A DNA stretch of 64,000 nucleotides from assembly GCA_033238645.1 (NCBI GenBank), contig BQXR01000010.1, forward strand, positions 6,128-70,127, in the 5' to 3' direction. Positions within the stretch are counted from its first letter, which is position 1, and each line of letters opens with the position of its first letter. Below, one piece after another: positions 40,484 to 50,000 of the stretch. Source of the DNA: Thiomicrorhabdus sp. (lineage in GTDB: Bacteria; Pseudomonadota; Gammaproteobacteria; Thiomicrospirales; Thiomicrospiraceae). Under the pieces are notes generated by a model. The model did no database searches. It saw only the letters and a list, made by a program, of their open reading frames with translations, and had not been told where the DNA came from. Made by a program: the position numbers and the translations under genes.

Positions 40484-41911
40484 TTAACCTGCACAACAAG
40501 AAAGCTGAGAAACGTCCTGTGAAAAAGTTTGGGCACAAAGCTTTAACCCTTCCACTTGAGTTAAATAAGGAAAAAGTGTATCCGCTAAATCCGTAATTGT
40601 CATTTTCTGTGCAACAGCAATCGCTGCAGTTTGTATCATTTCGCTAGCAACATCAGCAACGATTTGAGCACCAATTAATTGTTCAGTACTCTCATTCGCA
40701 ACCAATTGTATAAACCCTGTCGTATTAAAATTTGCTAAGGAACGAGGCACATGCTCTAAATCCAGCTTACGTGAAATAACAGATATCCCTTGTTTTTCTG
40801 CCTGTTTAACAGTTAAACCGACAGTTGCCACCTGTGGATCTGTAAAGACTACGGAGGGTAACGTTGTTAAATCTAAGACAGCATTACCTCCTACCATATT
40901 TTTCCCAGCACGGGTACCTGCCGCTGCTGCGACATAAACAAATTGAGGTAACTGAGTACAATCGCCCGCAGCATAGACATTTTCCTGACTCGTCTGAAGG
41001 TCTTTGCCAACAACAATCCGCCCTTGATTATCTGTATCAATATTGGTTTCCTGTAAATTGAGTTGATCCGTATTGGCTTGTCTTCCTGTCGCAATTAAAA
41101 CCTGCTCTGATTCCAATTCATCACCAGATGTCGTAGTACATTTGAACTGGTTATTTATATAACAAACTGACTCAAGTTCGCTGTGAGTAAGGACATTCAT
41201 CCCCTCAGATTCCAAGGTAGCCATTAACAACTCACCAATTGCAGAATCTTCGTTAGATAATAGAGTCGTGCGAGCGATTAAAGTAACTTGTGACCCCAAA
41301 CGTAAGAGTGCTTGTGCAATTTCTAAAGCAACCATAGAAGCACCTATAATAACCAGACTTTTCGGTGTTGTTTCTGTAAACAACGCTTCCGTGGATGTCC
41401 AATAAGGCGCATCCTTTAATCCATTAATGGGAGGAATATTCGCCCTAGCCCCTGTGGCGATCAATATTTTATCCGGCGATAAACGTAACGTACCACCGTC
41501 ATTTAATTCAACCTGTAATTCATTTGAATTATGAAATTTTGCACACCCTTCAATCAATTCAATAAGAGGGTTTTCTTCAAGAAGATTTTCATATTTGGCC
41601 GCACGTAGCTCATCGACACGTTGATGTATTTGCTTTGCAAGCATTGAACGGTTCAAGTCAAAAAACTTAATATGTAACGAAGGAAAGGCTGTTTGCTCTG
41701 TCTCGTGAGCAACTTTTGCTGCTTGAATGAGTATTTTGGACGGAACACACCCCACATTTACACAAGTGCCGCCTATCATTTTATTCGCTTCAATAATAGA
41801 GACCTTTGCACCCGACTTAGTGGCTTGAATTGCTGCTGCAAATGCGGCCGAACCAGAGCCAATAATGGCAACATGAAGAGGTCTGTTTTGATCTATACAA
41901 CAATCGTTCAT
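40484..41911 (-). CDS. merA: Mercuric reductase (short form lacking the NmerA domain)
   Basis: GSGSAA FAD motif, GGTCVNVGCVPSK redox disulfide and C-terminal SCCAG. Confidence 0.96.
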   Translation of the reverse strand: MNDCCIDQNRPLHVAIIGSGSAAFAAAIQATKSGAKVSIIEANKMIGGTCVNVGCVPSKILIQAAKVAHETEQTAFPSLHIKFFDLNRSMLAKQIHQRVDELRAAKYENLLEENPLIELIEGCAKFHNSNELQVELNDGGTLRLSPDKILIATGARANIPPINGLKDAPYWTSTEALFTETTPKSLVIIGASMVALEIAQALLRLGSQVTLIARTTLLSNEDSAIGELLMATLESEGMNVLTHSELESVCYINNQFKCTTTSGDELESEQVLIATGRQANTDQLNLQETNIDTDNQGRIVVGKDLQTSQENVYAAGDCTQLPQFVYVAAAAGTRAGKNMVGGNAVLDLTTLPSVVFTDPQVATVGLTVKQAEKQGISVISRKLDLEHVPRSLANFNTTGFIQLVANESTEQLIGAQIVADVASEMIQTAAIAVAQKMTITDLADTLFPYLTQVEGLKLCAQTFSQDVSQLSCCAG

Positions 41912-41920
41912 ATCACATTC

Positions 41921-42193
41921 CTATTTCTTTAATGTTGAAGGATAACCGGCATTCTCAGTGGTAAAAGTTAAATCCTCAACTTCTACAGCCTGATCATCAA
42001 ATATCACAATGGCCGTTTTATCTTTTAATGACGTTTTTACCACTTGAACACCCTCTACTTTCAATAAAGATTTTTTTACTGTAATCGGACAGGTTGGGCA
42101 GAACATGCCTGGAACATCGAGTATGATCGTTTTTTCAGCTGCCAAGGCATTAAAAGAAATGAATAAACTGAATATTAAAGTTATTGTTTTCAT
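41921..42193 (-). CDS. merP: Periplasmic mercury-binding protein
   Basis: Signal peptide and GMFCPTCPITV HMA motif. Confidence 0.92.
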   Translation of the reverse strand: MKTITLIFSLFISFNALAAEKTIILDVPGMFCPTCPITVKKSLLKVEGVQVVKTSLKDKTAIVIFDDQAVEVEDLTFTTENAGYPSTLKK

Positions 42194-42232
42194 GATGATT
42201 TCCTTATAGATATTTTAAAGAACATTTATTTT

Positions 42233-42595
42233 TTAATATAACCACGATTCTGGAAGCAGAGGAATCCACCAGGTAGAAGTCACTAAGATTGTTGCTAGAA
42301 CTAAGGCTGCCCAGAATAATCGACGACGATTGATTTGAACCTTAGGAATTGAACACGCTTCACCTGCTTGGCAAGACTGCTGTGGTTTATAAAGCCCCCA
42401 ACCAGTCCAGATGAATAAGATTATTGTCACAAGGATAAAATAGGGTTTGAAGGGTGCAAAAATCACAAGGCCAGATATCCATGAACCACTGACACCTAAC
42501 AAAATTAGAACCAAAGGCCCTGCACAGCACAAACTTGCACCAATGGCTGTGGTGATTGCTCCAATCAATGGTAATTTAGAGTTTTGAATAGACAT
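42233..42595 (-). CDS. merT: Mercuric ion transporter
   Basis: SLCCAGPLVL and CQAGEACSIP cysteine pairs. Confidence 0.94.
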   Translation of the reverse strand: MSIQNSKLPLIGAITTAIGASLCCAGPLVLILLGVSGSWISGLVIFAPFKPYFILVTIILFIWTGWGLYKPQQSCQAGEACSIPKVQINRRRLFWAALVLATILVTSTWWIPLLPESWLY

Positions 42596-42634
42596 ATAAC
42601 ACCTCTTTTAATTGAACTTTTTCTTTCATTTAAA

Positions 42635-42665
42635 ATCATACCTCCGTACCTAGGTACGGAAGTAA
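42635..42665 (-). promoter_or_regulatory. MerR operator/promoter of merTPA
   Basis: Perfect dyad TCCGTACCTAGGTACGGA (42643-42660) lies between -35 TTACTT (42665-42660) and -10 TATGAT (42640-42635) with a 19-bp spacer, as in Tn21/Tn501 mer promoters. Confidence 0.9.
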
Positions 42666-42748
42666 GAGGAAAAAAACAATCAAATTAAAAAAAATAATAA
42701 TTAAAGGAGGGTAATTTGCTTAATAATAGATATAAGCATTTAATTGAA

Positions 42749-43174
42749 TTAATCTTTGTATAAATTAGAAATTATGGGGCAAGAGATACTTGTATCTTCT
42801 GTAAGAGTACAAGTTATTGTGAGCTCATCTAAAACTCGTTCCAAACGAGAAAGTTCGTCTATCTTTGCTCGAACATCAAGTAATTTATTTTGTGCAAGAC
42901 TTCTAACTTCAGCACAACAGTGCGACCCATCTTCCAAAGCTAACAAACTTGCAATTTCATCCAGACTAAAACCTAATCCTTGAGCAGATTTAATAAACTT
43001 AACTCTCTTAACATCTGTTAAGTCATATTTTCGTATACCACCATAAGGTTTAACAGGCTCATTCAGTAGCTTTTTTCTTTGATAGAAACGAATTGTCTCA
43101 ACTGACACGCCAGATATCTTTGCAAACGTACCGATAGTCAGGCTCTTCAAATTATCATTAAGATTTTTGTCCAT
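42749..43174 (-). CDS. merR: Hg(II)-responsive regulator MerR
   Basis: [22 protein letters not shown] and Hg-binding Cys in GSHCC and C...CPII. Start set at ATG 43174 behind an AGGA RBS. Confidence 0.94.
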
Positions 43175-43281
43175 AAGATCATTCCTATAAATAACCACTA
43201 AAAAACGTAATGACAGCTATTAATCTATAGTTTTTTTGCTATTTTATGACTGCGTTTTTACAGAGGCTACTTACTAAAAGC

Positions 43282-44256
43282 TCAATTCCTAGATTTGATT
43301 TTTCTTCTAGGGTAAATAGATGGGATCAGTCGAATATAGAACAACTCCCCAACAAGTTCTACCATTGTTTGAGTAACAATTATGGCGGCCGCTAATATCC
43401 AGCCCTCTGGTAAAGCCAAAGCCAAAGGAAGAACCACCAGTGAATTACGAGTACCTGCACTAAAAAGCAAAGCTCTACCAGCTCCAACGTTCAAGTGAAA
43501 AGCACAAGCCGTTAACTTAGCAAGTAAGGGCATAATTACCATAAAAGCAACATAGACAGGAATAACCAACCAAACCATACTAAGCTCTTCTTCTACTCTA
43601 CCTATTTGAGACGCCACTACAAAAAATAGAACAAAGGCCATTAAGGGAACCGGTAGCCAAGTAATTCCATTAAGCCAAGTTACACCAATTGATTGTTTCT
43701 TAGCCCATAATTCGGTTATAAACGCCAATACTAAAGGCAAAGCAATCAAAAGAAAAAATGCTTCAATGAAGGGAGCTGCACTCATAACGTGTGTAACCAC
43801 ATCCCCCATGAAAAGCCATAGATAAATAGGTAGAAATATAATCTGAGCGATTAATAGTAGAGGAGTTGATGCAAGTAGAAGTTTAGAATCCCCTTTTCCC
43901 ATGTGAGTAAAAACAATAACATAGTCAATACATGGCGTGAGAAGAACAAGGTAGAAGCCGAGAAGTAGCACGGGGTCTTCGGGCAGAAAAAGCGACAATA
44001 ACCATACTAATATTGGAGCAATAATAAAATTAATTGTAAATAAAGCGGCATTAAACCTTATGTTAGAAAATGCTTCTCTCAGTTTTAAGAAAGGAACTAG
44101 AGTAAACATACTATAAAGTAAAGCAGCTAAAATAGGAGAAATTAATACTTCTAAACTTGTACCAATATTTGGGTTCACCAGCCCAATATACAACCCAAAA
44201 CCTAAGCTTAAAGTATAAATCCAGATTTGGTTTTTTTCCAGTTGTCCCCTAGACAT
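43282..44256 (-). CDS. Acr3/bile acid:Na+ symporter-family arsenic resistance protein
   Basis: LEKNQIWIY start, N(F)IIAP, LLTPCIDY and TRNSLVVLPLAL motifs; about 10 TM segments; ars context. Confidence 0.8.
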   Translation of the reverse strand: MSRGQLEKNQIWIYTLSLGFGLYIGLVNPNIGTSLEVLISPILAALLYSMFTLVPFLKLREAFSNIRFNAALFTINFIIAPILVWLLSLFLPEDPVLLLGFYLVLLTPCIDYVIVFTHMGKGDSKLLLASTPLLLIAQIIFLPIYLWLFMGDVVTHVMSAAPFIEAFFLLIALPLVLAFITELWAKKQSIGVTWLNGITWLPVPLMAFVLFFVVASQIGRVEEELSMVWLVIPVYVAFMVIMPLLAKLTACAFHLNVGAGRALLFSAGTRNSLVVLPLALALPEGWILAAAIIVTQTMVELVGELFYIRLIPSIYPRRKIKSRN

Positions 44257-44304
44257 ACCGTCTTCCTTTAAGTGACCTGTAAGACCTGAATCGTAACTTA
44301 AAAC

Positions 44305-44783
44305 CTAAATACTATTTAGACCAATCTCGTCTAACTCTTGTTGTAGTTTAACTCTGCTAAGCTTCTTATGTGGTAACAGAGTAAATAAGTTAATACGAGT
44401 ACTGAGTATTCTAAGTACATCTTTGTATTCTTTTAGGTCGCCATCGTCTGAATGAGGGTCTTCGACACCCCAGTGAGCATTAATAGGTTGTCCAGGCCAA
44501 ATTGGACATTGCTCACCATTAGCTTTGTCACAAACGGTAATAACAAAGTCTATTTTAGAAGCTCCGTCTTTAGCAAACTCATCCCAACTTTTTGGTTCTA
44601 AATCCTCTGGAAGAGCGATTTTGGCATCATTCAACACTTTAATAACACTTGGGTTAACCTCCTCTTTAGGATGGCTTCCTGCACTGTAGGCTTTAAAACA
44701 CCCTTTACCCCAGTGGTTTAAAAGGCTTCGGCCATAATGCTTCTTTTTGAATTCCCAGTGCATAGAAACAATACGTTATACAT
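44305..44783 (-). pseudogene. arsC: Thioredoxin-dependent arsenate reductase (LMW-PTP fold), frameshifted
   Basis: AGGAGG RBS, then ATG 44783 reads MYNVLFLCTGNSKRSIMAEAF and stops at 44720-44718. The rest (LNHW...SAGSHP...TVCD...CPIWPG...HWGVEDP) continues in the -1 frame. Confidence 0.85.
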
Positions 44784-44801
44784 AGCTTTTAACCTCCTAA
44801 G

Positions 44802-45821
44802 TTAAGCATCAAGCTCTTGATTAGCTTTACCTACTTTCATCGTCAACTCCATCATGCGTTGCATATAGCCAATTTCATTGTCGTACCATGCTAAAACTTT
44901 AACGTGAGTATTATTAACTACACGGGTTGATTGAGCATCAATGACTGATGAGCACGTTTCGCCCTCATAATCTACTGACACCAATGGCAATTCCTCATAA
45001 CCCAAGATGTCTTTTAGGTAGGTTTCAGAGGCTTCTTTAAATAGACTATTGACCTCTACTACCGAGGTTGGTCGCTGCATTTCCATGACCAAATCCGTCA
45101 AAGAAGCATTCATAAACGGTACACGAACTGCAATGCCATCCAAGCGCCCGTTTAGCTCTGGAAAGATGGAGCCAATCGCGGTGGCAGAACCAGTTGACGT
45201 TGGAATCAATGATTCAAAGCTTGAACGTGCACGTCGCCAATCTTTATGACCATGATCCACCACTTTTTGGGTATTGGTGCGGTCGTGCATGGTGGTAATT
45301 GAGCCGTGCGAAATCCCGATTTTTTCATGTAACACTTTTATAACAGGAGCAATACAGTTAGTTGTACAAGAGGCAGCTGTAATCAGACAGTCTTCACCAG
45401 CCACAAAAATATCATCATTAATGCCCATGACAATGTTTTTCACGCCTTCTTTAAAGGGGGCGGCGACAATCACTTGTTTAACGCCTTGGTCAAAATAAGG
45501 CTGTACATCTGCACGTGTGCGGAATTTACCGGTGCATTCTAGAACTACATCAATATCAAGCGCACCCCAATCAAAATCCTCTAGAGCATTTCGAGAGCTG
45601 TAACCAATTTGTTTTTCATGAATCACAATCTGACCATTTTCTTCACTCGCTTTATTATGCCAGCGACCATGGGCTGAATCGTAATTTAAAAGATGAGCAG
45701 AACCTGCTGCATCCGTGGCAATTTCATTGATATGCACAAACTCAATGCCTTCCCAGTCAAATGCCTGACGTAAACCTAAACGCCCCATACGCCCAAAACC
45801 ATTTATTGCTACACGAATCAT
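44802..45821 (-). CDS. gap: Arsenic-associated (ArsJ-type) glyceraldehyde-3-phosphate dehydrogenase
   Basis: INGFGRMGRL, ASCTTNC and WYDNE motifs; ars-operon context. Confidence 0.9.
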   Translation of the reverse strand: MIRVAINGFGRMGRLGLRQAFDWEGIEFVHINEIATDAAGSAHLLNYDSAHGRWHNKASEENGQIVIHEKQIGYSSRNALEDFDWGALDIDVVLECTGKFRTRADVQPYFDQGVKQVIVAAPFKEGVKNIVMGINDDIFVAGEDCLITAASCTTNCIAPVIKVLHEKIGISHGSITTMHDRTNTQKVVDHGHKDWRRARSSFESLIPTSTGSATAIGSIFPELNGRLDGIAVRVPFMNASLTDLVMEMQRPTSVVEVNSLFKEASETYLKDILGYEELPLVSVDYEGETCSSVIDAQSTRVVNNTHVKVLAWYDNEIGYMQRMMELTMKVGKANQELDA

Positions 45822-45864: not shown

Positions 45865-45888
45865 TATATACGCATATACGGATTAATC
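45865..45888. promoter_or_regulatory. ArsR-type operator 1 (between gap and arsR)
   Basis: TATATACGCATATACGGATTAATC, an imperfect dyad in the divergent gap/arsR spacer; 21 of 24 bases match the site at 49589. Confidence 0.7.
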
Positions 45889-45926: not shown

Positions 45927-46298
45927 ATGACAAATTTAGATGATTTAAAAGCTTTAGAAGAACACGCTCAATTTCACAAAGCATTTGCCGAACCAGTAAG
46001 GCTCAGAATCTTAGCGTTGCTAAGAACCAGAGAATCACTTTGTGTATGTGATTTAGTATCTGTACTGGAACTTTCACAAAGCACTGTTTCAAGGCATCTT
46101 GCCTATCTTAAAAATCAAGGGATCGTAAACTCGTGGCGTGAGGGAACCTGGATACACTACTCATTGGATAAAAATCATCCCGCTTCTGAGGTTCTTTTGC
46201 CAAGCTTGGCGTTTTTAGGCACGCTAGAGCAGGCAAAAAATGACTGCTTAGCTTTGAAAAGATATGAGAAATCACCCAGGCAGTGTAAAGCTAATTAA
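45927..46298 (+). CDS. arsR: ArsR/SmtB-family metalloregulator
   Basis: RLRIL...LCVCDL...SQSTVSRHLAYLK...REGTWIHYSL. Confidence 0.93.
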   Translation: MTNLDDLKALEEHAQFHKAFAEPVRLRILALLRTRESLCVCDLVSVLELSQSTVSRHLAYLKNQGIVNSWREGTWIHYSLDKNHPASEVLLPSLAFLGTLEQAKNDCLALKRYEKSPRQCKAN

Positions 46299-46523: not shown

Positions 46524-46900
46524 TTAGACATCTCGTAAACAGCATTTACCTGAAGGATTACATGAACATTTTTTTAGCTTTGTCTGTTTTGTGACATAGT
46601 CTTTTATTTCTGGGCTATCTATATAGTTTTGCTAGGTCACACCAAACAATAGCAAACTTAACGGTCAGGATTTGCAGATATTATTCCAAACATTTGTCTT
46701 AATTGACCATTTTCGTTGACCAAACAATCTCTTGTAAAATAAACCAGCTCGTATTTCGAGTCATCGCAAAAATAAAATTATTTTTCTGATAAACCCAACA
46801 ACTAGGGTTGCTTAGAATACGAAGGAGAGTGGCAACAGGACTGCGACAAACAACAAGATGACATTGATGCTTTCCTTTGATCGTATCTTTAGAGGTACCG
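46524..46900 (-). pseudogene. Decayed zf_CopZ-like Zn/[2Fe-2S] metallochaperone
   Basis: Fragments KHQC..., YFCDDSKYELVYF (46774 onward), VCYC(F)GV (46654-46646, one T lost) and CSCNPSGKCCLRDV* (46568-46524). It carries stops and frameshifts and is absent from the ORF track. Confidence 0.75.
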
Positions 46901-46950
46901 ATTTAGTAAATTCCGATACCTTTAGTTTTTTAACGGATTATTGCTTGCAA

Positions 46951-47886
46951 TCACATTGAAGATTCTAATTTTAAGTAAGTACGATTCAGGTTTTGTTTGT
47001 GCCATGAATCATAGTGCTCAAGGTGTTTGAATTCAAGCCAGTCTTTGTTCTCTGAGACCGCCGTATCCACACCAGCCATATTTTCAGCTTTTTCTTTCAT
47101 GGATTCATTCAGCTTTTTCAAATAGTCACCTGTTTCAGCATCGGCCTGTTTCCAATCAGAAACTTTACCGTGACCAGGTACAATGAACTCGGCTGGTAAT
47201 TGACGCATTAGCTGATAAGCCTCATTCCAGGTTATCGGATTAGACCAAGGGTGAACCCCTAGCATACGATCTAAATAAATGATGTCACCCGTAAACAAGA
47301 CTTTTTGTTTTGGTAGCCATAGAGCACTATCGCCAGGAAAATGAGCATCACCATAGAAATTTAGATGCATTTCAACGCCGCCAATATTCAGTGTATTGGA
47401 TTCTTTTTCCAATACCACGTCTGCGGTTTTCATTTTCACGCCCTTCAAGGCGGGAACTTTTTTGACCAAGCCCTCTACCTCTTGGTTAAACATCGATGAC
47501 TGGATTTTAACACTGCCTTTGTAGGCATAGATTTTTGCACCGTGCTTGGAAAAATAATCATTGCCTAACCAGCGGTGGTCTTGGCTACCGATATTAATCA
47601 CCGCCACAATAGGCTGGTCTTTAATGCCTTTGGCAATGGCCACCAGTTTTTTGGCAGCGGCATCACCCGAACCGGAGTCAACCAGTACCCAACCATCAGC
47701 TGTATCAATAAAACCAATATTATTGTTAAGTCCTAGGTTTTCAGGCGTACGGTCGGTAATTGGTCCGACATAAGCATAAACACCATCAGTCACCTTTTGA
47801 GCTTTGAAGTCCATGGCTTGAGTTGAAAAAGACACAACGGCCAAAGCAGTAGTTGCAACCAGTCCCAAGAAAGTACGTCTTTTCAT
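46951..47886 (-). CDS. Tat-exported metallo-beta-lactamase-fold hydrolase (SoxH-like)
   Basis: MKRRTFLG twin-arginine signal plus VLVDSG, GSQDHRWLGN, AHFPGD, FTGD and VPGHG motifs. Confidence 0.8.
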   Translation of the reverse strand: MKRRTFLGLVATTALAVVSFSTQAMDFKAQKVTDGVYAYVGPITDRTPENLGLNNNIGFIDTADGWVLVDSGSGDAAAKKLVAIAKGIKDQPIVAVINIGSQDHRWLGNDYFSKHGAKIYAYKGSVKIQSSMFNQEVEGLVKKVPALKGVKMKTADVVLEKESNTLNIGGVEMHLNFYGDAHFPGDSALWLPKQKVLFTGDIIYLDRMLGVHPWSNPITWNEAYQLMRQLPAEFIVPGHGKVSDWKQADAETGDYLKKLNESMKEKAENMAGVDTAVSENKDWLEFKHLEHYDSWHKQNLNRTYLKLESSM

Positions 47887-47931
47887 ATTCAATTTTCCTT
47901 TTGGTAAGTGCAACAAGTGATGAGTGTGCGC

Positions 47932-48576
47932 TTACGACAACCACTCGATAATCATCTTTTTATTTGGCATTCCGCCTGAATGAACAACTTGATCGTTAAT
48001 GACGATGCCAGGAGTGCTCATAATGCCATAAGCAGCAATCTCAGTAATCTCTTCGATTTTAATGACCTTCACCTCTACCCCAAGTTCTTGAGCAGTAGAC
48101 TCAATCAGCTTCATAGTATTTGTACAGGTTGCACAGCCTGTACCGAGAACTTTAATTTCAAGTGCGCCACTACCATAGTAGCCAGTGGTAGAAGGCGAAT
48201 CTTTACCACCACAACAAGGGGTTTCTTTTTCACTTATTGCTTCGAGTTCTGAACTACAACAGCCATCTTGAGGCTTAATTTCACCAGGCTGAGCAGTCGG
48301 ACTACAACAACTTGTTGTTTCTTTAGCTTGTGCTTTTGGCTTTGTTCCACAAGCACCGCCAGGACAGCATTCACCCGTTTTAGATAGCTTGCCGACCAAT
48401 TCCGCAGGACACCAACCTGTAAAAGTAGCCTGAAACCCCATAAATGCAGGCAAAGTTGCCAACCACAGCCAGTTGAGAGTTAGTAAATTTGTTTGACCTG
48501 AAAAATGTGCCAAACCAATGCCAATCAAAATCATTGCTGTCATTAAACGAATCATTAAATTGTCTTTCATTATCAT
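47932..48576 (-). CDS. DUF2892 membrane domain + Cys-rich linker + small thioredoxin-like (CxxC) fusion
   Basis: Two TM segments ending in FTGWCP, four CC pairs, then IKVLGTGCATC...YGIMSTPGIVIN. The start may be ATG 48570. Confidence 0.8.
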   Translation of the reverse strand: MIMKDNLMIRLMTAMILIGIGLAHFSGQTNLLTLNWLWLATLPAFMGFQATFTGWCPAELVGKLSKTGECCPGGACGTKPKAQAKETTSCCSPTAQPGEIKPQDGCCSSELEAISEKETPCCGGKDSPSTTGYYGSGALEIKVLGTGCATCTNTMKLIESTAQELGVEVKVIKIEEITEIAAYGIMSTPGIVINDQVVHSGGMPNKKMIIEWLS

Positions 48577-48591
48577 TTCCCCTTGAAAGAT

Positions 48592-49554
48592 TTATGAATA
48601 TAAAAAATTAAATAAATAGCCTACTAAGATAAACGCAACAGTTAATACGCCAACAAACACTGCCAATGCTGGCCAACGAATCACTTTACGAAGAATTAAC
48701 AATTCAGGTAATGATAAAGCAGCAATACTCATCATCAAAGCAAGGCTCGTTCCTAGTGGAACACCTTTACCCAGCATCGCTTCGATAAAAGGAATTACAC
48801 CTGTTGCATTTGAATAGAGAGGCACACCGACTACTACTGCCGCTGGTACACTCCACCAGCTAGACGAATCACTTAAATAGGTAGTGACCCAAGCTTCAGG
48901 CACGAACCCGTGAAAAGCAGCACCTAAAGCAATCCCAATGAAAATCCAATACCAGATGCGTTTTACAATGACTTTGACTTCATTCCAAGCAAAATCATGA
49001 CGCTTGGAAAAACTCCCTGTATGAGCTTGCTGTTCTTGTTGCTGACGCATTTTAATATCCCAGACGTAGGACTCTACCCAGCGCTCAGGTTTAAACCATT
49101 CCATAATGATAGAACCAAAATATGCTACTGTGATTCCAGCCAAAACATATAACAAGGCCACTTCCCATCCTAATAGAGTGGCCAAAAGTATTACTGCAAC
49201 CTCATTAATCATAGGGCTGGCGATAAGAAAGGCAAAAGTAATCCCCAAAGGAATTCGTGCTTCAACAAATCCGATAAACAGAGGCACAGAAGAACAAGAG
49301 CAAAAGGGTGTCACGCCGCCTAAAGTAATGGCTAAAGACCTAGCCTGCCATTTTGGGCGACCAGCCACGATTTGGCGAACTCTTTCAGTAGAAATAAACG
49401 CGCGTAACAGTCCCATGACATAAATAATGACGACCAGTAAGAAAAATATCTTTATGGTATCCATTATAAAAAACTGAATGGCCGTGCCTAAGTGGCTCTG
49501 AGAGCTTAACTCTAAAAGATCAAACGCAACCCAATTACCGATTTGCTCAAACAT
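48592..49554 (-). CDS. arsP: ArsP/DUF318-family permease
   Basis: TPFCSCSSVPLF, FLIASPMINE, GVPLYSNA and ALSLPE motifs. Confidence 0.85.
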   Translation of the reverse strand: MFEQIGNWVAFDLLELSSQSHLGTAIQFFIMDTIKIFFLLVVIIYVMGLLRAFISTERVRQIVAGRPKWQARSLAITLGGVTPFCSCSSVPLFIGFVEARIPLGITFAFLIASPMINEVAVILLATLLGWEVALLYVLAGITVAYFGSIIMEWFKPERWVESYVWDIKMRQQQEQQAHTGSFSKRHDFAWNEVKVIVKRIWYWIFIGIALGAAFHGFVPEAWVTTYLSDSSSWWSVPAAVVVGVPLYSNATGVIPFIEAMLGKGVPLGTSLALMMSIAALSLPELLILRKVIRWPALAVFVGVLTVAFILVGYLFNFLYS

Positions 49555-49588
49555 AGATACTCCATGGAAAAATAAGAATTGAAACCAT

Positions 49589-49612
49589 TATATCCGCATA
49601 AGCGGATTAATC
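49589..49612. promoter_or_regulatory. ArsR-type operator 2 (upstream of arsP)
   Basis: TATATCCGCATAAGCGGATTAATC with dyad ATCCGC-N4-GCGGAT, 35 bp upstream of the permease start. Confidence 0.7.
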
Positions 49613-50000
49613 AAAATATTTTTTAGAGTTGTATATAAGAAATGACTTGGATACCGTTCCAAGAATGGATGCTTACTGAAGTAATTGATGGGGAATTTAA
49701 AATCGTAAAAGGTGGTTCTAATAGTACAATAAAACACTGTGAATCTAAACGTTAATACTCAGAGAAGAGGTTTTAGCTTCCTTTGGTAGCTCGAAGTATA
49801 AGAAGAGTCTCCATTGAGTTGGAGAATATCGTTTACAAAACCCGAATTGGCCAGTTAGAGGCGAATAATTAACCTTTGTGTACGAAATGGTGTTGCCATT
49901 CCAGCTATCTTAAACAGCCTGAGCTGCTTATTTTATATTCGTTTTGTACAACCCTATGTATTAAGGCTGTGATTTATATGAGACCTTTTCATCTTTTTAA

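What the first reader, a model, noticed from the sequence alone, without database searches (positions are those of the whole stretch)
46524..49554. Candidate undescribed arsenic-sulfur detoxification operon: ArsP permease, DUF2892-Cys-thioredoxin fusion, Tat-exported SoxH-like hydrolase and zf_CopZ-like Fe-S protein
Seen: four tightly spaced co-directional genes (gaps of about 15 bp between the intact ones) behind an ArsR-type operator. Known: ArsP exports trivalent organoarsenicals and is often paired with a small CxxC redox protein. DUF2892/YgaP domains associate with sulfurtransferases, and SoxH-like MBL proteins occur in sulfur-oxidation clusters. I do not recognise this combination as a characterised ars pathway. 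Inference: in a sulfur oxidiser exposed to sulfide and arsenic, the module could process thioarsenicals, with periplasmic desulfuration, membrane thiol relay and efflux.
Basis: inference. Interest (0 to 1): 0.8.

Follow-up and report, generated by a model that had tools for sequence, protein, structure and literature searches.

The report
Arsenic operon with periplasmic SoxH-like enzyme
A sulfur-oxidising marine bacterium carries an arsenic-controlled operon in which a known type of arsenical export pump and its thioredoxin partner travel with an exported, SoxH-like metallo-enzyme of unknown function, a partnership that recurs across many sulfur oxidisers and could mark an undescribed step linking arsenic and sulfur chemistry.

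Summary
On the minus strand lie an ArsP_1 permease (49554-48592), a membrane-hairpin/Cys-rich/ArsE-type thioredoxin fusion (48570-47932) and an exported SoxH-like MBL-fold protein (47886-46951). They sit behind a sigma-70-like promoter that overlaps a palindromic operator, and that operator is repeated at the arsR/gap promoter.

The fourth "gene" (46864-46524) is a frameshifted relic of a CopZ_Nterm_CC protein. It recurs in none of about 100 related loci.

The three-gene core does recur. About half of the 80 fetched MBL loci lie within 3.5 kb of ars genes, in at least six gene orders. These come from Thiomicrospiraceae, Halothiobacillus, Thiobacillus, Chromatiales and Rhodocyclales, and from two alphaproteobacterial plasmids (ArsR-permease-Trx-MBL-OsmC). 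The same operator sits directly upstream of the MBL in five relatives, including two stand-alone copies.

The MBL is 27% identical to Paracoccus SoxH. It has GSQDHRW in place of HxHxDH, and some congeners carry it just after soxAX.

The permease-thioredoxin pair is already known. The ArsR-controlled periplasmic SoxH-like partner was not found in the searchable literature. A thioarsenical (As-S) role is plausible but untested. The scan had not noted this on other DNA.

The parts
49587..49614 (-). Promoter-like site (TTGATT, 16 nt, TATAAT) overlapping the palindromic ArsR-type operator ATCCGC-TTAT-GCGGAT (element 49589-49612)
   Evidence: The operator is conserved at ars promoters of relatives.
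48592..49554 (-). ArsP_1-family permease, 320 aa, with VTPFCSCSS cysteine motif
   Evidence: PF03773 at 232 bits, full length. 68-86% identical to the copies of relatives. dN/dS about 0.05 against L033.
47932..48570 (-). Membrane-tethered ArsE/MTH895-type thioredoxin: YgaP-like 2-TM hairpin, linker with four Cys-Cys pairs, Thioredoxin_3 domain with CxxC (GCATC)
46951..47886 (-). Exported (twin-arginine signal) SoxH-like MBL-fold protein, 311 aa, with GSQDHRW in place of HxHxDH
46524..46864 (-). Pseudogene of a CopZ_Nterm_CC (putative Fe-S-binding metallochaperone) gene, with at least three frame breaks or stops
   Evidence: NF047645, 36.5 bits on a read-through. No Pfam hit. Not found in related loci.
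45927..46298 (+). ArsR/SmtB repressor with the LCVCDL As(III)-site motif
   Evidence: HTH_5 63 bits, NF033788 92 bits. Sequence.
45865..45888 (.). Second copy of the operator element, in the arsR/gap divergent intergenic region
   Evidence: 21 of 24 identical to 49589-49612.
44802..45821 (-). ArsJ-associated-type GAPDH, first gene of the second ArsR-controlled operon (context, not part of the module)
   Evidence: NF033735 at 514 bits, cut-off 450.
44305..44801 (-). arsC (thioredoxin-type, LMW-PTP fold) interrupted by a frameshift after MYNVLFLCTGNSKRSIMAEAF (context)

Best explanation
This is an ArsR-repressed, arsenite-inducible three-gene operon of a Thiomicrorhabdus-like sulfur oxidiser, followed by a dead fourth gene.

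Proposed mechanism:
1. As(III) binds the Cys-Val-Cys site of ArsR. ArsR then leaves the palindromic operator that overlaps the promoter.
2. In the cytoplasm, the membrane-anchored thioredoxin fusion captures trivalent arsenicals on its vicinal Cys-Cys linker, in the manner of ArsD. It either keeps the permease's cysteine pair reduced or passes the arsenical to it.
3. The ArsP-type permease exports the arsenical.
4. In the periplasm, where these bacteria handle sulfide, sulfane sulfur and thiosulfate, the SoxH-like mononuclear metallo-enzyme acts on arsenic-sulfur species. These would be thioarsenicals or arsenic adducts on sulfur-carrier thiols. The arsenic then leaves as an oxyanion and the sulfur re-enters sulfur oxidation.

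Shown or predicted from sequence: gene content, order, intactness, purifying selection, the shared operator, the predicted export signal, and recurrence of the triad.

Inferred: induction by As(III), the direction of thiol hand-off, and above all the chemistry of the MBL.

My odds: about 0.8 that the MBL is a genuine member of the ArsR regulon with an arsenic-related role, and about 0.25-0.3 that the role is cleavage or processing of As-S bonds.
For: Regulation:
- The operator is shared by both ars promoters and overlaps the best -35/-10 match.
- ArsR carries LCVCDL.
- The same palindrome lies directly upstream of the MBL gene in L025, L030 (Hydrogenovibrio crunogenus) and L048.
- It also precedes stand-alone MBL genes, behind a terminator-like hairpin, in L042 and L043.

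Synteny:
- In the 80-locus survey, 38 loci had ars genes within 3.5 kb of the MBL, 20 had ArsP_1, and 18 had the full triad.
- A wider count over 93 MBL copies in 98 loci gave ars or ars+sox context in 48, and ArsP_1 within 5 kb in 29.
- I counted at least six distinct gene orders, including MBL embedded as ArsR-ArsC-MBL-Acr3-ArsP-Trx and as ArsC-ArsC-Acr3-MBL-ArsP-Trx.
- Ars-linked copies occur in almost every clade of the MBL tree.
- Alphaproteobacterial plasmids carry ArsR(HCVCEL)-permease-Trx-MBL-OsmC, one of them next to aioA.
- In the nearest relative, L033, the permease is directly followed by the MBL.

Function retained: dN/dS about 0.05 for the permease and the MBL. D103, H104, H182, D201 and H239 are invariant.

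Sulfur link:
- Homology to SoxH.
- soxA-soxX immediately upstream of the MBL in L035, L036, L041, L050.
- A periplasmic rhodanese gene upstream in L042, L043 and within about 2.3 kb in L109.
- Rhodanese fused to SoxH-type MBLs.
- Nearly all hosts are sulfur oxidisers.

[quoted passage not shown] Thioarsenate resistance is 'yet to be verified' (PMC6205960).
Against: - There are no expression data.
- There is no biochemical precedent for any SoxH-family activity.
- About 18 of the informative loci show no ars or sox neighbours. Examples are Thioalkalivibrio and Guyparkeria, where the gene sits among housekeeping genes.
- In close relatives the window's MBL clade also lies after soxAX (L035, L036). 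Thiomicrorhabdus marina (L041, L016) has the same overall order as the window but with a 7.5-kb TCS/soxAX module between the thioredoxin and the MBL. The adjacency here may therefore come from a deletion.
- The alphaproteobacterial cassettes are followed by CDF or P-type metal pumps, so the substrate might be another thiophilic element.
- The island is decaying: arsC is frameshifted and the CopZ-like gene is dead.
- PDB neighbours give no substrate clue. They are an uncharacterised Burkholderia MBL, chlorothalonil dehalogenase, alkylsulfatases and B2 carbapenemases.
Confidence: 0.45

Rival explanations
1. The MBL is simply the lineage's SoxH, an accessory of periplasmic sulfur oxidation with no arsenic role. 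It lies next to ars genes because sox/TCS and ars modules share a rearrangement-prone neighbourhood in Thiomicrospiraceae. In this window, a deletion brought it next to the thioredoxin gene.
For: 27% identity to Paracoccus SoxH. soxA-soxX-MBL order in L035, L036, L041, L050. T. marina has permease-Trx-[PhnD-like, porin, HK, RR, SoxA, SoxX]-MBL-ArsR. The window's MBL is 80-83% identical to those sox-context copies.
Against: The ArsR palindrome lies directly upstream of the MBL in five relatives, including stand-alone copies. The MBL is embedded inside co-directional ars operons of Thiobacillus, Halothiobacillus, Chromatiales and Rhodocyclales, and on alphaproteobacterial plasmids, with no sox genes nearby. 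The sox/TCS context is confined to one family.
Confidence: 0.13
2. The triad detoxifies organoarsenicals, as ArsP and ArsEFG do. The thioredoxin reduces or conditions methyl- or aryl-arsenicals. The permease exports the trivalent form. The periplasmic MBL then hydrolyses or oxidises the exported compound, with no sulfur involved.
For: PF03773 is the ArsP family. ArsP exports MAs(III) and trivalent roxarsone but not arsenite (PMC6205960). The thioredoxin belongs to the 'MTH895/ArsE' family. The MBL's fold neighbours include a hydrolytic dehalogenase of an aromatic compound and alkylsulfatases.
Against: This does not explain why the MBL partner is essentially confined to sulfur oxidisers, why it is a SoxH homologue, or why it neighbours soxAX and rhodanese genes. 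No ArsF-type partner was detected among the neighbours scanned. I could not read the ArsEFG paper.
Confidence: 0.15
3. The permease-thioredoxin-MBL cassette handles another thiophilic metal or a sulfur stress (Zn/Cd/Cu, persulfide or sulfite). ArsR-family control and ars neighbours reflect general metal-island clustering.
For: The nearest NCBIfam permease models are SaoE and the SO_0444 Cu/Zn efflux family, both far below cut-off. The plasmid cassettes are followed by a CDF transporter or a P-type ATPase plus OsmC. CDF genes lie near the MBL in four loci. A mer operon adjoins the island here.
Against: The ArsR proteins carry the CVC motif, both here and on the plasmids. That this motif marks As(III)/Sb(III)-type sensors is from my memory. 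The commonest neighbours are specifically arsenic genes: ArsC, Acr3, ArsJ-type GAPDH and ArsJ. One plasmid cassette lies beside aioA.
Confidence: 0.1
4. In this genome the cluster is a decaying remnant of an imported Hg/As island and no longer functions.
For: The CopZ-like gene is dead and arsC is frameshifted. No arsJ follows the ArsJ-type GAPDH. One Cys-Cys pair of the linker is replaced by Tyr-Tyr relative to the nearest homologue.
Against: The three genes are intact with good ribosome-binding sites, an intact promoter/operator and an intact ArsR. dN/dS is about 0.05 against the nearest relative.
Confidence: 0.05

Closest known systems
ArsP (Campylobacter jejuni methylarsenite/roxarsone(III) efflux permease; Pfam PF03773 ArsP_1)
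   Same: Full-length PF03773 match, located in an ArsR-controlled ars locus, with a cysteine pair in a TPFCSCS-like motif.
   Different: Substrate untested. It is paired with a tethered thioredoxin and a periplasmic enzyme. The nearest curated NCBIfam models (SaoE, SO_0444) are far below cut-off, so the subfamily is unnamed.
Redox-active disulfide protein 2 / MTH895/ArsE-family thioredoxin-like proteins in ars operons (Castillo and Saier 2010; ArsE of the Shewanella ArsEFG system)
   Same: Thioredoxin_3 domain above the TIGR00412 cut-off, a CxxC motif, and a position immediately after the permease gene.
   Different: Here, and only in Thiomicrospiraceae (84 database clusters), it is fused to a YgaP-like 2-TM hairpin and a variable linker with 2-5 Cys-Cys pairs. 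No ArsF-type partner was seen. Nitro-reduction of aromatic arsenicals is not implied.
SoxH of the Paracoccus sox cluster (periplasmic MBL-fold protein of unknown function)
   Same: Homologous over the full length (27%, E 8e-36). Exported. The HxHxDH motif is degenerate in the same way (NGQGH against GSQDH). Some close relatives of the window's copy lie directly after soxAX.
   Different: A distinct clade with an invariant GSQDHRW motif. It is mostly found in ars operons and preceded by an ArsR operator. It falls below the cut-offs of the SoxH-related TIGR04558 and TIGR04559 models.
ArsD arsenic metallochaperone
   Same: Vicinal cysteine pairs that could bind As(III) and hand it to a transporter. 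This is a functional analogy for the linker.
   Different: No sequence homology was tested or claimed. ArsD is soluble and serves the ArsAB ATPase.
Persulfide dioxygenase-rhodanese systems under ArsR-family control (BigR/Blh, CstB)
   Same: An MBL fold with a mononuclear His/Asp site, association with rhodanese domains, an ArsR-family regulator, and TauE genes nearby.
   Different: Those enzymes are cytoplasmic and keep HxHxDH, and their regulators sense persulfide. The BigR model scores only 37.8 bits here against a cut-off of 155.

Membership tests
ArsP (PF03773 / methylarsenite efflux permease) | Full-length PF03773 domain above the gathering score | tested here: met
   232.2 bits against 32.3, profile positions 1-294 of 294.
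ArsP (PF03773 / methylarsenite efflux permease) | Encoded in an ArsR-controlled arsenic locus | tested here: met
   Shared operator at both ars promoters, with ArsR, GAPDH and arsC alongside.
ArsP (PF03773 / methylarsenite efflux permease) | Conserved membrane cysteine pair (TPFCSCS-type motif) | tested here: met
   VTPFCSCSS is present. That this pair is the substrate site of C. jejuni ArsP is from my memory; the paper could not be read.
ArsP (PF03773 / methylarsenite efflux permease) | Exports trivalent organoarsenicals but not arsenite | not testable with these tools
   Needs transport assays.
MTH895/ArsE thioredoxin-like family (TIGR00412) | Score above the curated cut-off and a CxxC motif | tested here: met
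   84.9 bits against 62. GTGCATC is conserved in 18 of 18 aligned homologues.
MTH895/ArsE thioredoxin-like family (TIGR00412) | Small stand-alone protein of about 75-80 aa | tested here: not met
   212-aa fusion with a 2-TM hairpin and a Cys-rich linker.
ArsEFG nitro-aromatic arsenical system | ArsF partner next to ArsE and the permease | tested here: not met
   No ArsF-named NCBIfam hit for any neighbour or for the N-terminal part of the fusion. The system's definition is from memory; the paper is not held.
SoxH | Homology to the MBL encoded at the soxH position of the Paracoccus sox cluster | tested here: met
   27% identity over 317 columns, E 8e-36.
SoxH | Exported to the periplasm | tested here: met
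   MKRRTFLG...TQA signal. 112 of 117 homologues have a signal-like N-terminus. This is a prediction only.
SoxH | Encoded within a sox gene cluster | tested here: not met
   No SoxA or SoxX in the window. It is met in relatives L035, L036, L041, L050.
SoxH-related quinoprotein relay hydrolases (TIGR04558/TIGR04559) | Score above the curated cut-off | tested here: not met
   113-116 bits against cut-offs of 300 and 280.
Canonical binuclear-zinc metallo-beta-lactamase | HxHxDH motif supplying the first zinc site | tested here: not met
   GSQDHRW in 115 of 117 homologues. Aligned to B1 enzymes, H116 becomes G, H118 becomes Q and D120 becomes H, while the H196, 221 and H263 equivalents are kept.
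Canonical binuclear-zinc metallo-beta-lactamase | MBL alpha-beta/beta-alpha fold | tested here: met
   AF2 model with pLDDT 92.5. Foldseek probability 1.0 to 8d2z, 6uxu and CphA.
CopZ_Nterm_CC putative Fe-S metallochaperone (NF047645) | Intact reading frame scoring above the cut-off | tested here: not met
   At least three frame breaks. The read-through scores 36.5 bits against 100.
As(III)-responsive ArsR (type-1 site) | ArsR/SmtB winged helix with a Cys-Val-Cys site in the DNA-binding region | tested here: met
   NF033788 at 92.4 bits against 55. SLCVCDL is present. As(III) binding itself was not tested.

The most novel reading that the evidence does not exclude
The GSQDHRW clade of SoxH-like proteins is a so-far unnamed periplasmic ars enzyme of sulfur-oxidising bacteria. 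It would cleave arsenic-sulfur bonds, in thioarsenates, methylated thioarsenicals or arsenic adducts on Sox carrier thiols. That would make it the missing enzymatic link between the Sox pathway and arsenic detoxification, and the first function assigned to any SoxH-family protein.
Probability: 0.22. Interest if true: 0.85.

Novelty: new variant of a known kind. Interest (0 to 1): 0.62.

Why it matters
Ars operons have repeatedly yielded new enzymes, and as far as I recall the named ones act in the cytoplasm or as membrane pumps. An exported enzyme under ArsR control would be a new kind of component. It is conserved in ars operons of dozens of sulfur-oxidising species and on plasmids.

It also bears on an open question. 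Sulfur oxidisers are known to transform thioarsenates, the dominant arsenic species in sulfidic alkaline and hydrothermal waters, but no enzyme has been identified (PMC6620896, PMC6205960). SoxH itself has no known function.

The family is now defined by a motif, a confident model, an operator and cultured carriers such as Hydrogenovibrio crunogenus, Halothiobacillus and Ectothiorhodospira. The hypothesis can therefore be tested directly at the bench.

Tried and rejected
1. The four-gene module. A regex scan of six-frame translations of about 100 related loci found no intact or broken CopZ_Nterm_CC gene outside this genome. A word-based homologue search and a plasmid tblastn search with the read-through also found nothing. 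The fourth gene was dropped from the module.

2. AioXSR reading of the neighbouring two-component system. I first read the PhnD-like, HK and sigma-54 RR genes next to some MBLs as arsenite-sensing AioXSR. NCBIfam gave only generic hits, and the adjacent cytochromes are SoxA and SoxX. I therefore treat this module as sox-related and claim no arsenic link from it.

3. MOSC and TauE genes upstream of the permease. They have no counterparts next to the cluster in 16 loci from related genomes, so they are flanking genes.

4. Thioalkalivibrio arsenite transcriptome supplements (PMC6620896). 'MBL fold' genes are listed, but I could not map which one is the homologue. The rows shown were not significantly changed. 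Inconclusive.

5. Papers on ArsP, ArsEFG, ArsU and ArsZ are not held. The features of those systems are from memory.

There was therefore no whole-genome inventory of sox, arsJ or a second MBL in this genome, and no read-based test of co-transcription.


Full report
**What is there**

The window belongs to a 2.26-Mb genome. Its closest protein matches come from Thiomicrorhabdus and other Thiomicrospiraceae. Between 49554 and 46524 the minus strand carries four elements.

1. A 320-aa permease. It matches Pfam ArsP_1 at full length, 232 bits, and contains VTPFCSCSS.

2. A 212-214-aa fusion protein.
   - It has a weak YgaP-like two-helix membrane hairpin.
   - A linker follows with four Cys-Cys pairs.
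   - It ends in a C-terminal Thioredoxin_3 domain. This domain passes the cut-off of TIGR00412, which NCBI now calls the 'MTH895/ArsE family'.

3. A 311-aa MBL-fold protein with a twin-arginine signal (MKRRTFLG). Its best curated hits are the SoxH-related models, far below their cut-offs.

4. A 340-nt relic.
   - It starts MSSCCLSQSCC and is broken at least three times.
   - Read through, it aligns end to end with NCBIfam CopZ_Nterm_CC at only 36.5 bits.

Ribosome-binding sites and database homologues place the real starts at 48570 and 47886. The intergenic gaps are then 21 and 45 nt. No terminator-like site separates the genes.

**Regulation**

The best sigma-70-like match of the region is TTGATT-16-TATAAT, just upstream of the permease. 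A perfect palindrome, ATCCGC-TTAT-GCGGAT, fills its spacer. A 24-nt element including this palindrome recurs at 21 of 24 bases in the divergent arsR/gap intergenic region. The ArsR encoded there has the SLCVCDL motif. From memory, the two cysteines of this motif are the ones that bind As(III) in the classical R773 repressor.

The palindrome is not a local coincidence. With up to four mismatches it occurs 20 times in 1.54 Mb of window plus fetched loci, some of which overlap one another. My own arithmetic expects about 0.1 by chance. Those I located lie at ars-type promoters.

**Does the cluster recur?**

The permease/thioredoxin-fusion pair is present in 21 of 24 congeners searched. It usually lies beside ArsR and an ArsJ-type GAPDH.

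The MBL joins the pair in several Thiomicrorhabdus genomes, in Hydrogenovibrio crunogenus and in Ectothiorhodospira mobilis.

A pattern scan of one genome per species found more than 571 loci encoding the family. Nearly all are in sulfur oxidisers.

Of the 80 best loci:
- 38 have ars genes within 3.5 kb.
- The ars neighbours counted were ArsP_1 in 20, Trx in 21, ArsR in 17, Acr3 in 17, GAPDH in 14, ArsJ in 13 and ArsC in 11.
- 18 carry the full triad.

Gene orders differ between lineages:
- ArsR and MBL divergent, then MBL-ArsP-Trx-GAPDH-ArsJ.
- ArsP-Trx-MBL, as in the window.
- ArsR-ArsC-MBL-Acr3-ArsP-Trx.
- ArsC-ArsC-Acr3-MBL-ArsP-Trx.
- MBL-Acr3-GAPDH-ArsJ.

On a tree of 90 MBL sequences the ars-linked copies appear in almost every clade.

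Two alphaproteobacterial plasmids carry ArsR(HCVCEL)-permease-Trx-MBL-OsmC, with overlapping stop and start codons. One of them lies a few genes from an arsenite-oxidase large subunit.

The operator sits directly in front of the MBL gene in L025, L030 and L048. It also sits in front of MBL genes that stand alone behind a terminator-like hairpin in L042 and L043. In the nearest relative (L033) the permease is followed directly by the MBL, with no thioredoxin gene between them.

The fourth gene is different. No CopZ_Nterm_CC-like sequence exists in any of the related loci.

**What the MBL is**

The family is highly conserved. D103, H104, H182, D201 and H239 are invariant, and 115 of 117 homologues have GSQDHRW. 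It is under strong purifying selection, with dN/dS about 0.05 against L033. The permease gives the same value.

Aligned with B1 enzymes:
- The first-site histidines H116 and H118 are Gly and Gln.
- Position 120 is His.
- The equivalents of H196, residue 221 (Asp here) and H263 are kept.

This pattern suggests a mononuclear His/Asp/His site.

A confident model (pLDDT 92.5) most resembles the following PDB entries:
- an uncharacterised Burkholderia MBL (8d2z);
- chlorothalonil dehalogenase;
- alkylsulfatases;
- mono-zinc B2 carbapenemases.

None of these gives a substrate clue.

The protein is 27% identical over its whole length (E 8e-36) to the second MBL of the Paracoccus sox cluster, the soxH position. 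That protein has the same kind of degenerate motif, NGQGH.

Further sulfur links:
- Several close relatives of the window's copy lie immediately after soxA-soxX (TIGR04484 at 248 bits, TIGR04485 at 92 bits). Upstream of these are a sigma-54 two-component system, a PhnD-like binding protein and a porin.
- A periplasmic double-rhodanese gene precedes the MBL in L042 and L043 and lies within about 2.3 kb of it in L109.
- Rhodanese is fused to SoxH-type MBLs in three representative clusters.
- Export is conserved across the family, but the Tat motif is not.

**The thioredoxin fusion**

The fusion is confined to Thiomicrospiraceae, with 84 database clusters. The hairpin, a GECCPG motif and the CxxC are conserved. 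The linker varies in length and holds 2-5 Cys-Cys pairs. In the window's copy one pair reads Tyr-Tyr.

Lys and Arg residues flank the hairpin on both the N- and C-terminal sides. By the positive-inside rule, the linker and thioredoxin domain should therefore face the cytoplasm.

The pairing of PF03773 permeases with 'redox-active disulfide protein 2' in ars operons was reported in 2010 (PMC2963123).

**Interpretation**

The descriptive part is secure. This is an ArsR-regulon operon built on the known permease-thioredoxin pair, plus a conserved exported SoxH-like enzyme, followed by a dead gene.

How the enzyme works is inference. The best-supported reading is that it handles arsenic-sulfur species in the periplasm of bacteria that fill that compartment with reactive sulfur. 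The grounds are:
- restriction to sulfur oxidisers;
- kinship with SoxH;
- rhodanese and soxAX links;
- ArsR control.

The literature leaves room for this reading. [quoted passage not shown] Thioarsenate resistance mechanisms are 'yet to be verified' (PMC6205960).

**Caveats**
- About a quarter of the informative loci show no ars or sox context. Examples are Thioalkalivibrio and Guyparkeria.
- In T. marina a 7.5-kb TCS/soxAX module separates the thioredoxin gene from the MBL, in an otherwise identical order. The tight adjacency here may therefore be secondary.
- The plasmid cassettes are followed by metal pumps.
- The island is decaying. arsC is frameshifted, and no arsJ or canonical Acr3 lies in the window.

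**Novelty and limits**

No paper in the searchable library links SoxH or any MBL to ars operons. NCBIfam (June 2026) has no Ars-named model that hits the protein. I could not read the ArsP, ArsEFG, ArsU or ArsZ papers.

There was therefore no transcript evidence and no whole-genome inventory.

The scan's earlier notes concern only this same stretch.

Noticed in passing
window 44718-44801 and 44305-44763 (minus strand): arsC is split by a one-base frameshift in a T/A run. MYNVLFLCTGNSKRSIMAEAF, which contains the catalytic loop, ends at a stop, and the rest of the protein continues in another frame. This is either a real pseudogene or a homopolymer assembly error.
   Followed up: partly
window 43282-45821: An ArsJ-associated-type GAPDH (NF033735, 514 bits) is not followed by arsJ. 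After the broken arsC comes an SBF-family transporter that scores only 35.6 bits on the ACR3 model (cut-off 283). Acr3 queries from relatives do not hit it.
   Followed up: partly
L028:8482-9201 (same genome, another contig): A paralogue of the fusion protein, 239 aa. It has the hairpin and a long Cys-Cys-rich linker, but the thioredoxin CxxC is replaced (GADKEKS) and a C-terminal GCCGSCS tail is added. It stands alone between a murein transglycosylase gene and a PP2C/kinase gene.
   Followed up: no
L041 / L016 (Thiomicrorhabdus marina 6S2-11): The overall order is the same as in the window (permease, Trx fusion, MBL, ArsR, GAPDH). A 7.5-kb block lies between the Trx fusion and the MBL: PhnD-like protein, porin, histidine kinase, sigma-54 regulator, SoxA and SoxX. 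This is an insertion there or a deletion here.
   Followed up: partly
L114 (Pseudosulfitobacter plasmid NZ_CP054604) and L116 (Hoeflea plasmid NZ_CP011480): A portable cassette, ArsR-permease-Trx-MBL-OsmC, followed by a CDF transporter or a P-type ATPase. On the first plasmid it lies near TauE, a nitroreductase and the arsenite oxidase large subunit.
   Followed up: partly
P0230, P0254, P0263 (metagenomic representatives): Exported proteins that fuse an N-terminal rhodanese domain to a SoxH-type MBL (motif ENxQxHA). This domain fusion ties the SoxH family to sulfane-sulfur transfer.
   Followed up: partly
L042:6877-7791, and the same in L043; also L109: A signal-peptide-bearing double-rhodanese gene lies immediately upstream of the operator-preceded MBL in L042 and L043. 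A homologue lies within about 2.3 kb of the MBL in L109.
   Followed up: no
window 40484-43198: A mercury operon (merR, merT, merA) directly adjoins the ars genes on the same strand. The whole 38.7-50 kb stretch looks like a composite metal-resistance island.
   Followed up: no
L030, L042-L044, L046, L048 and other Thiomicrospiraceae loci: FolE2-type GTP cyclohydrolase, CobW-like and Mqo-like oxidoreductase genes recur beside ArsR and the MBL (10 loci). This recalls the reported folE arsenic-resistance determinant (PMC9144182).
   Followed up: no
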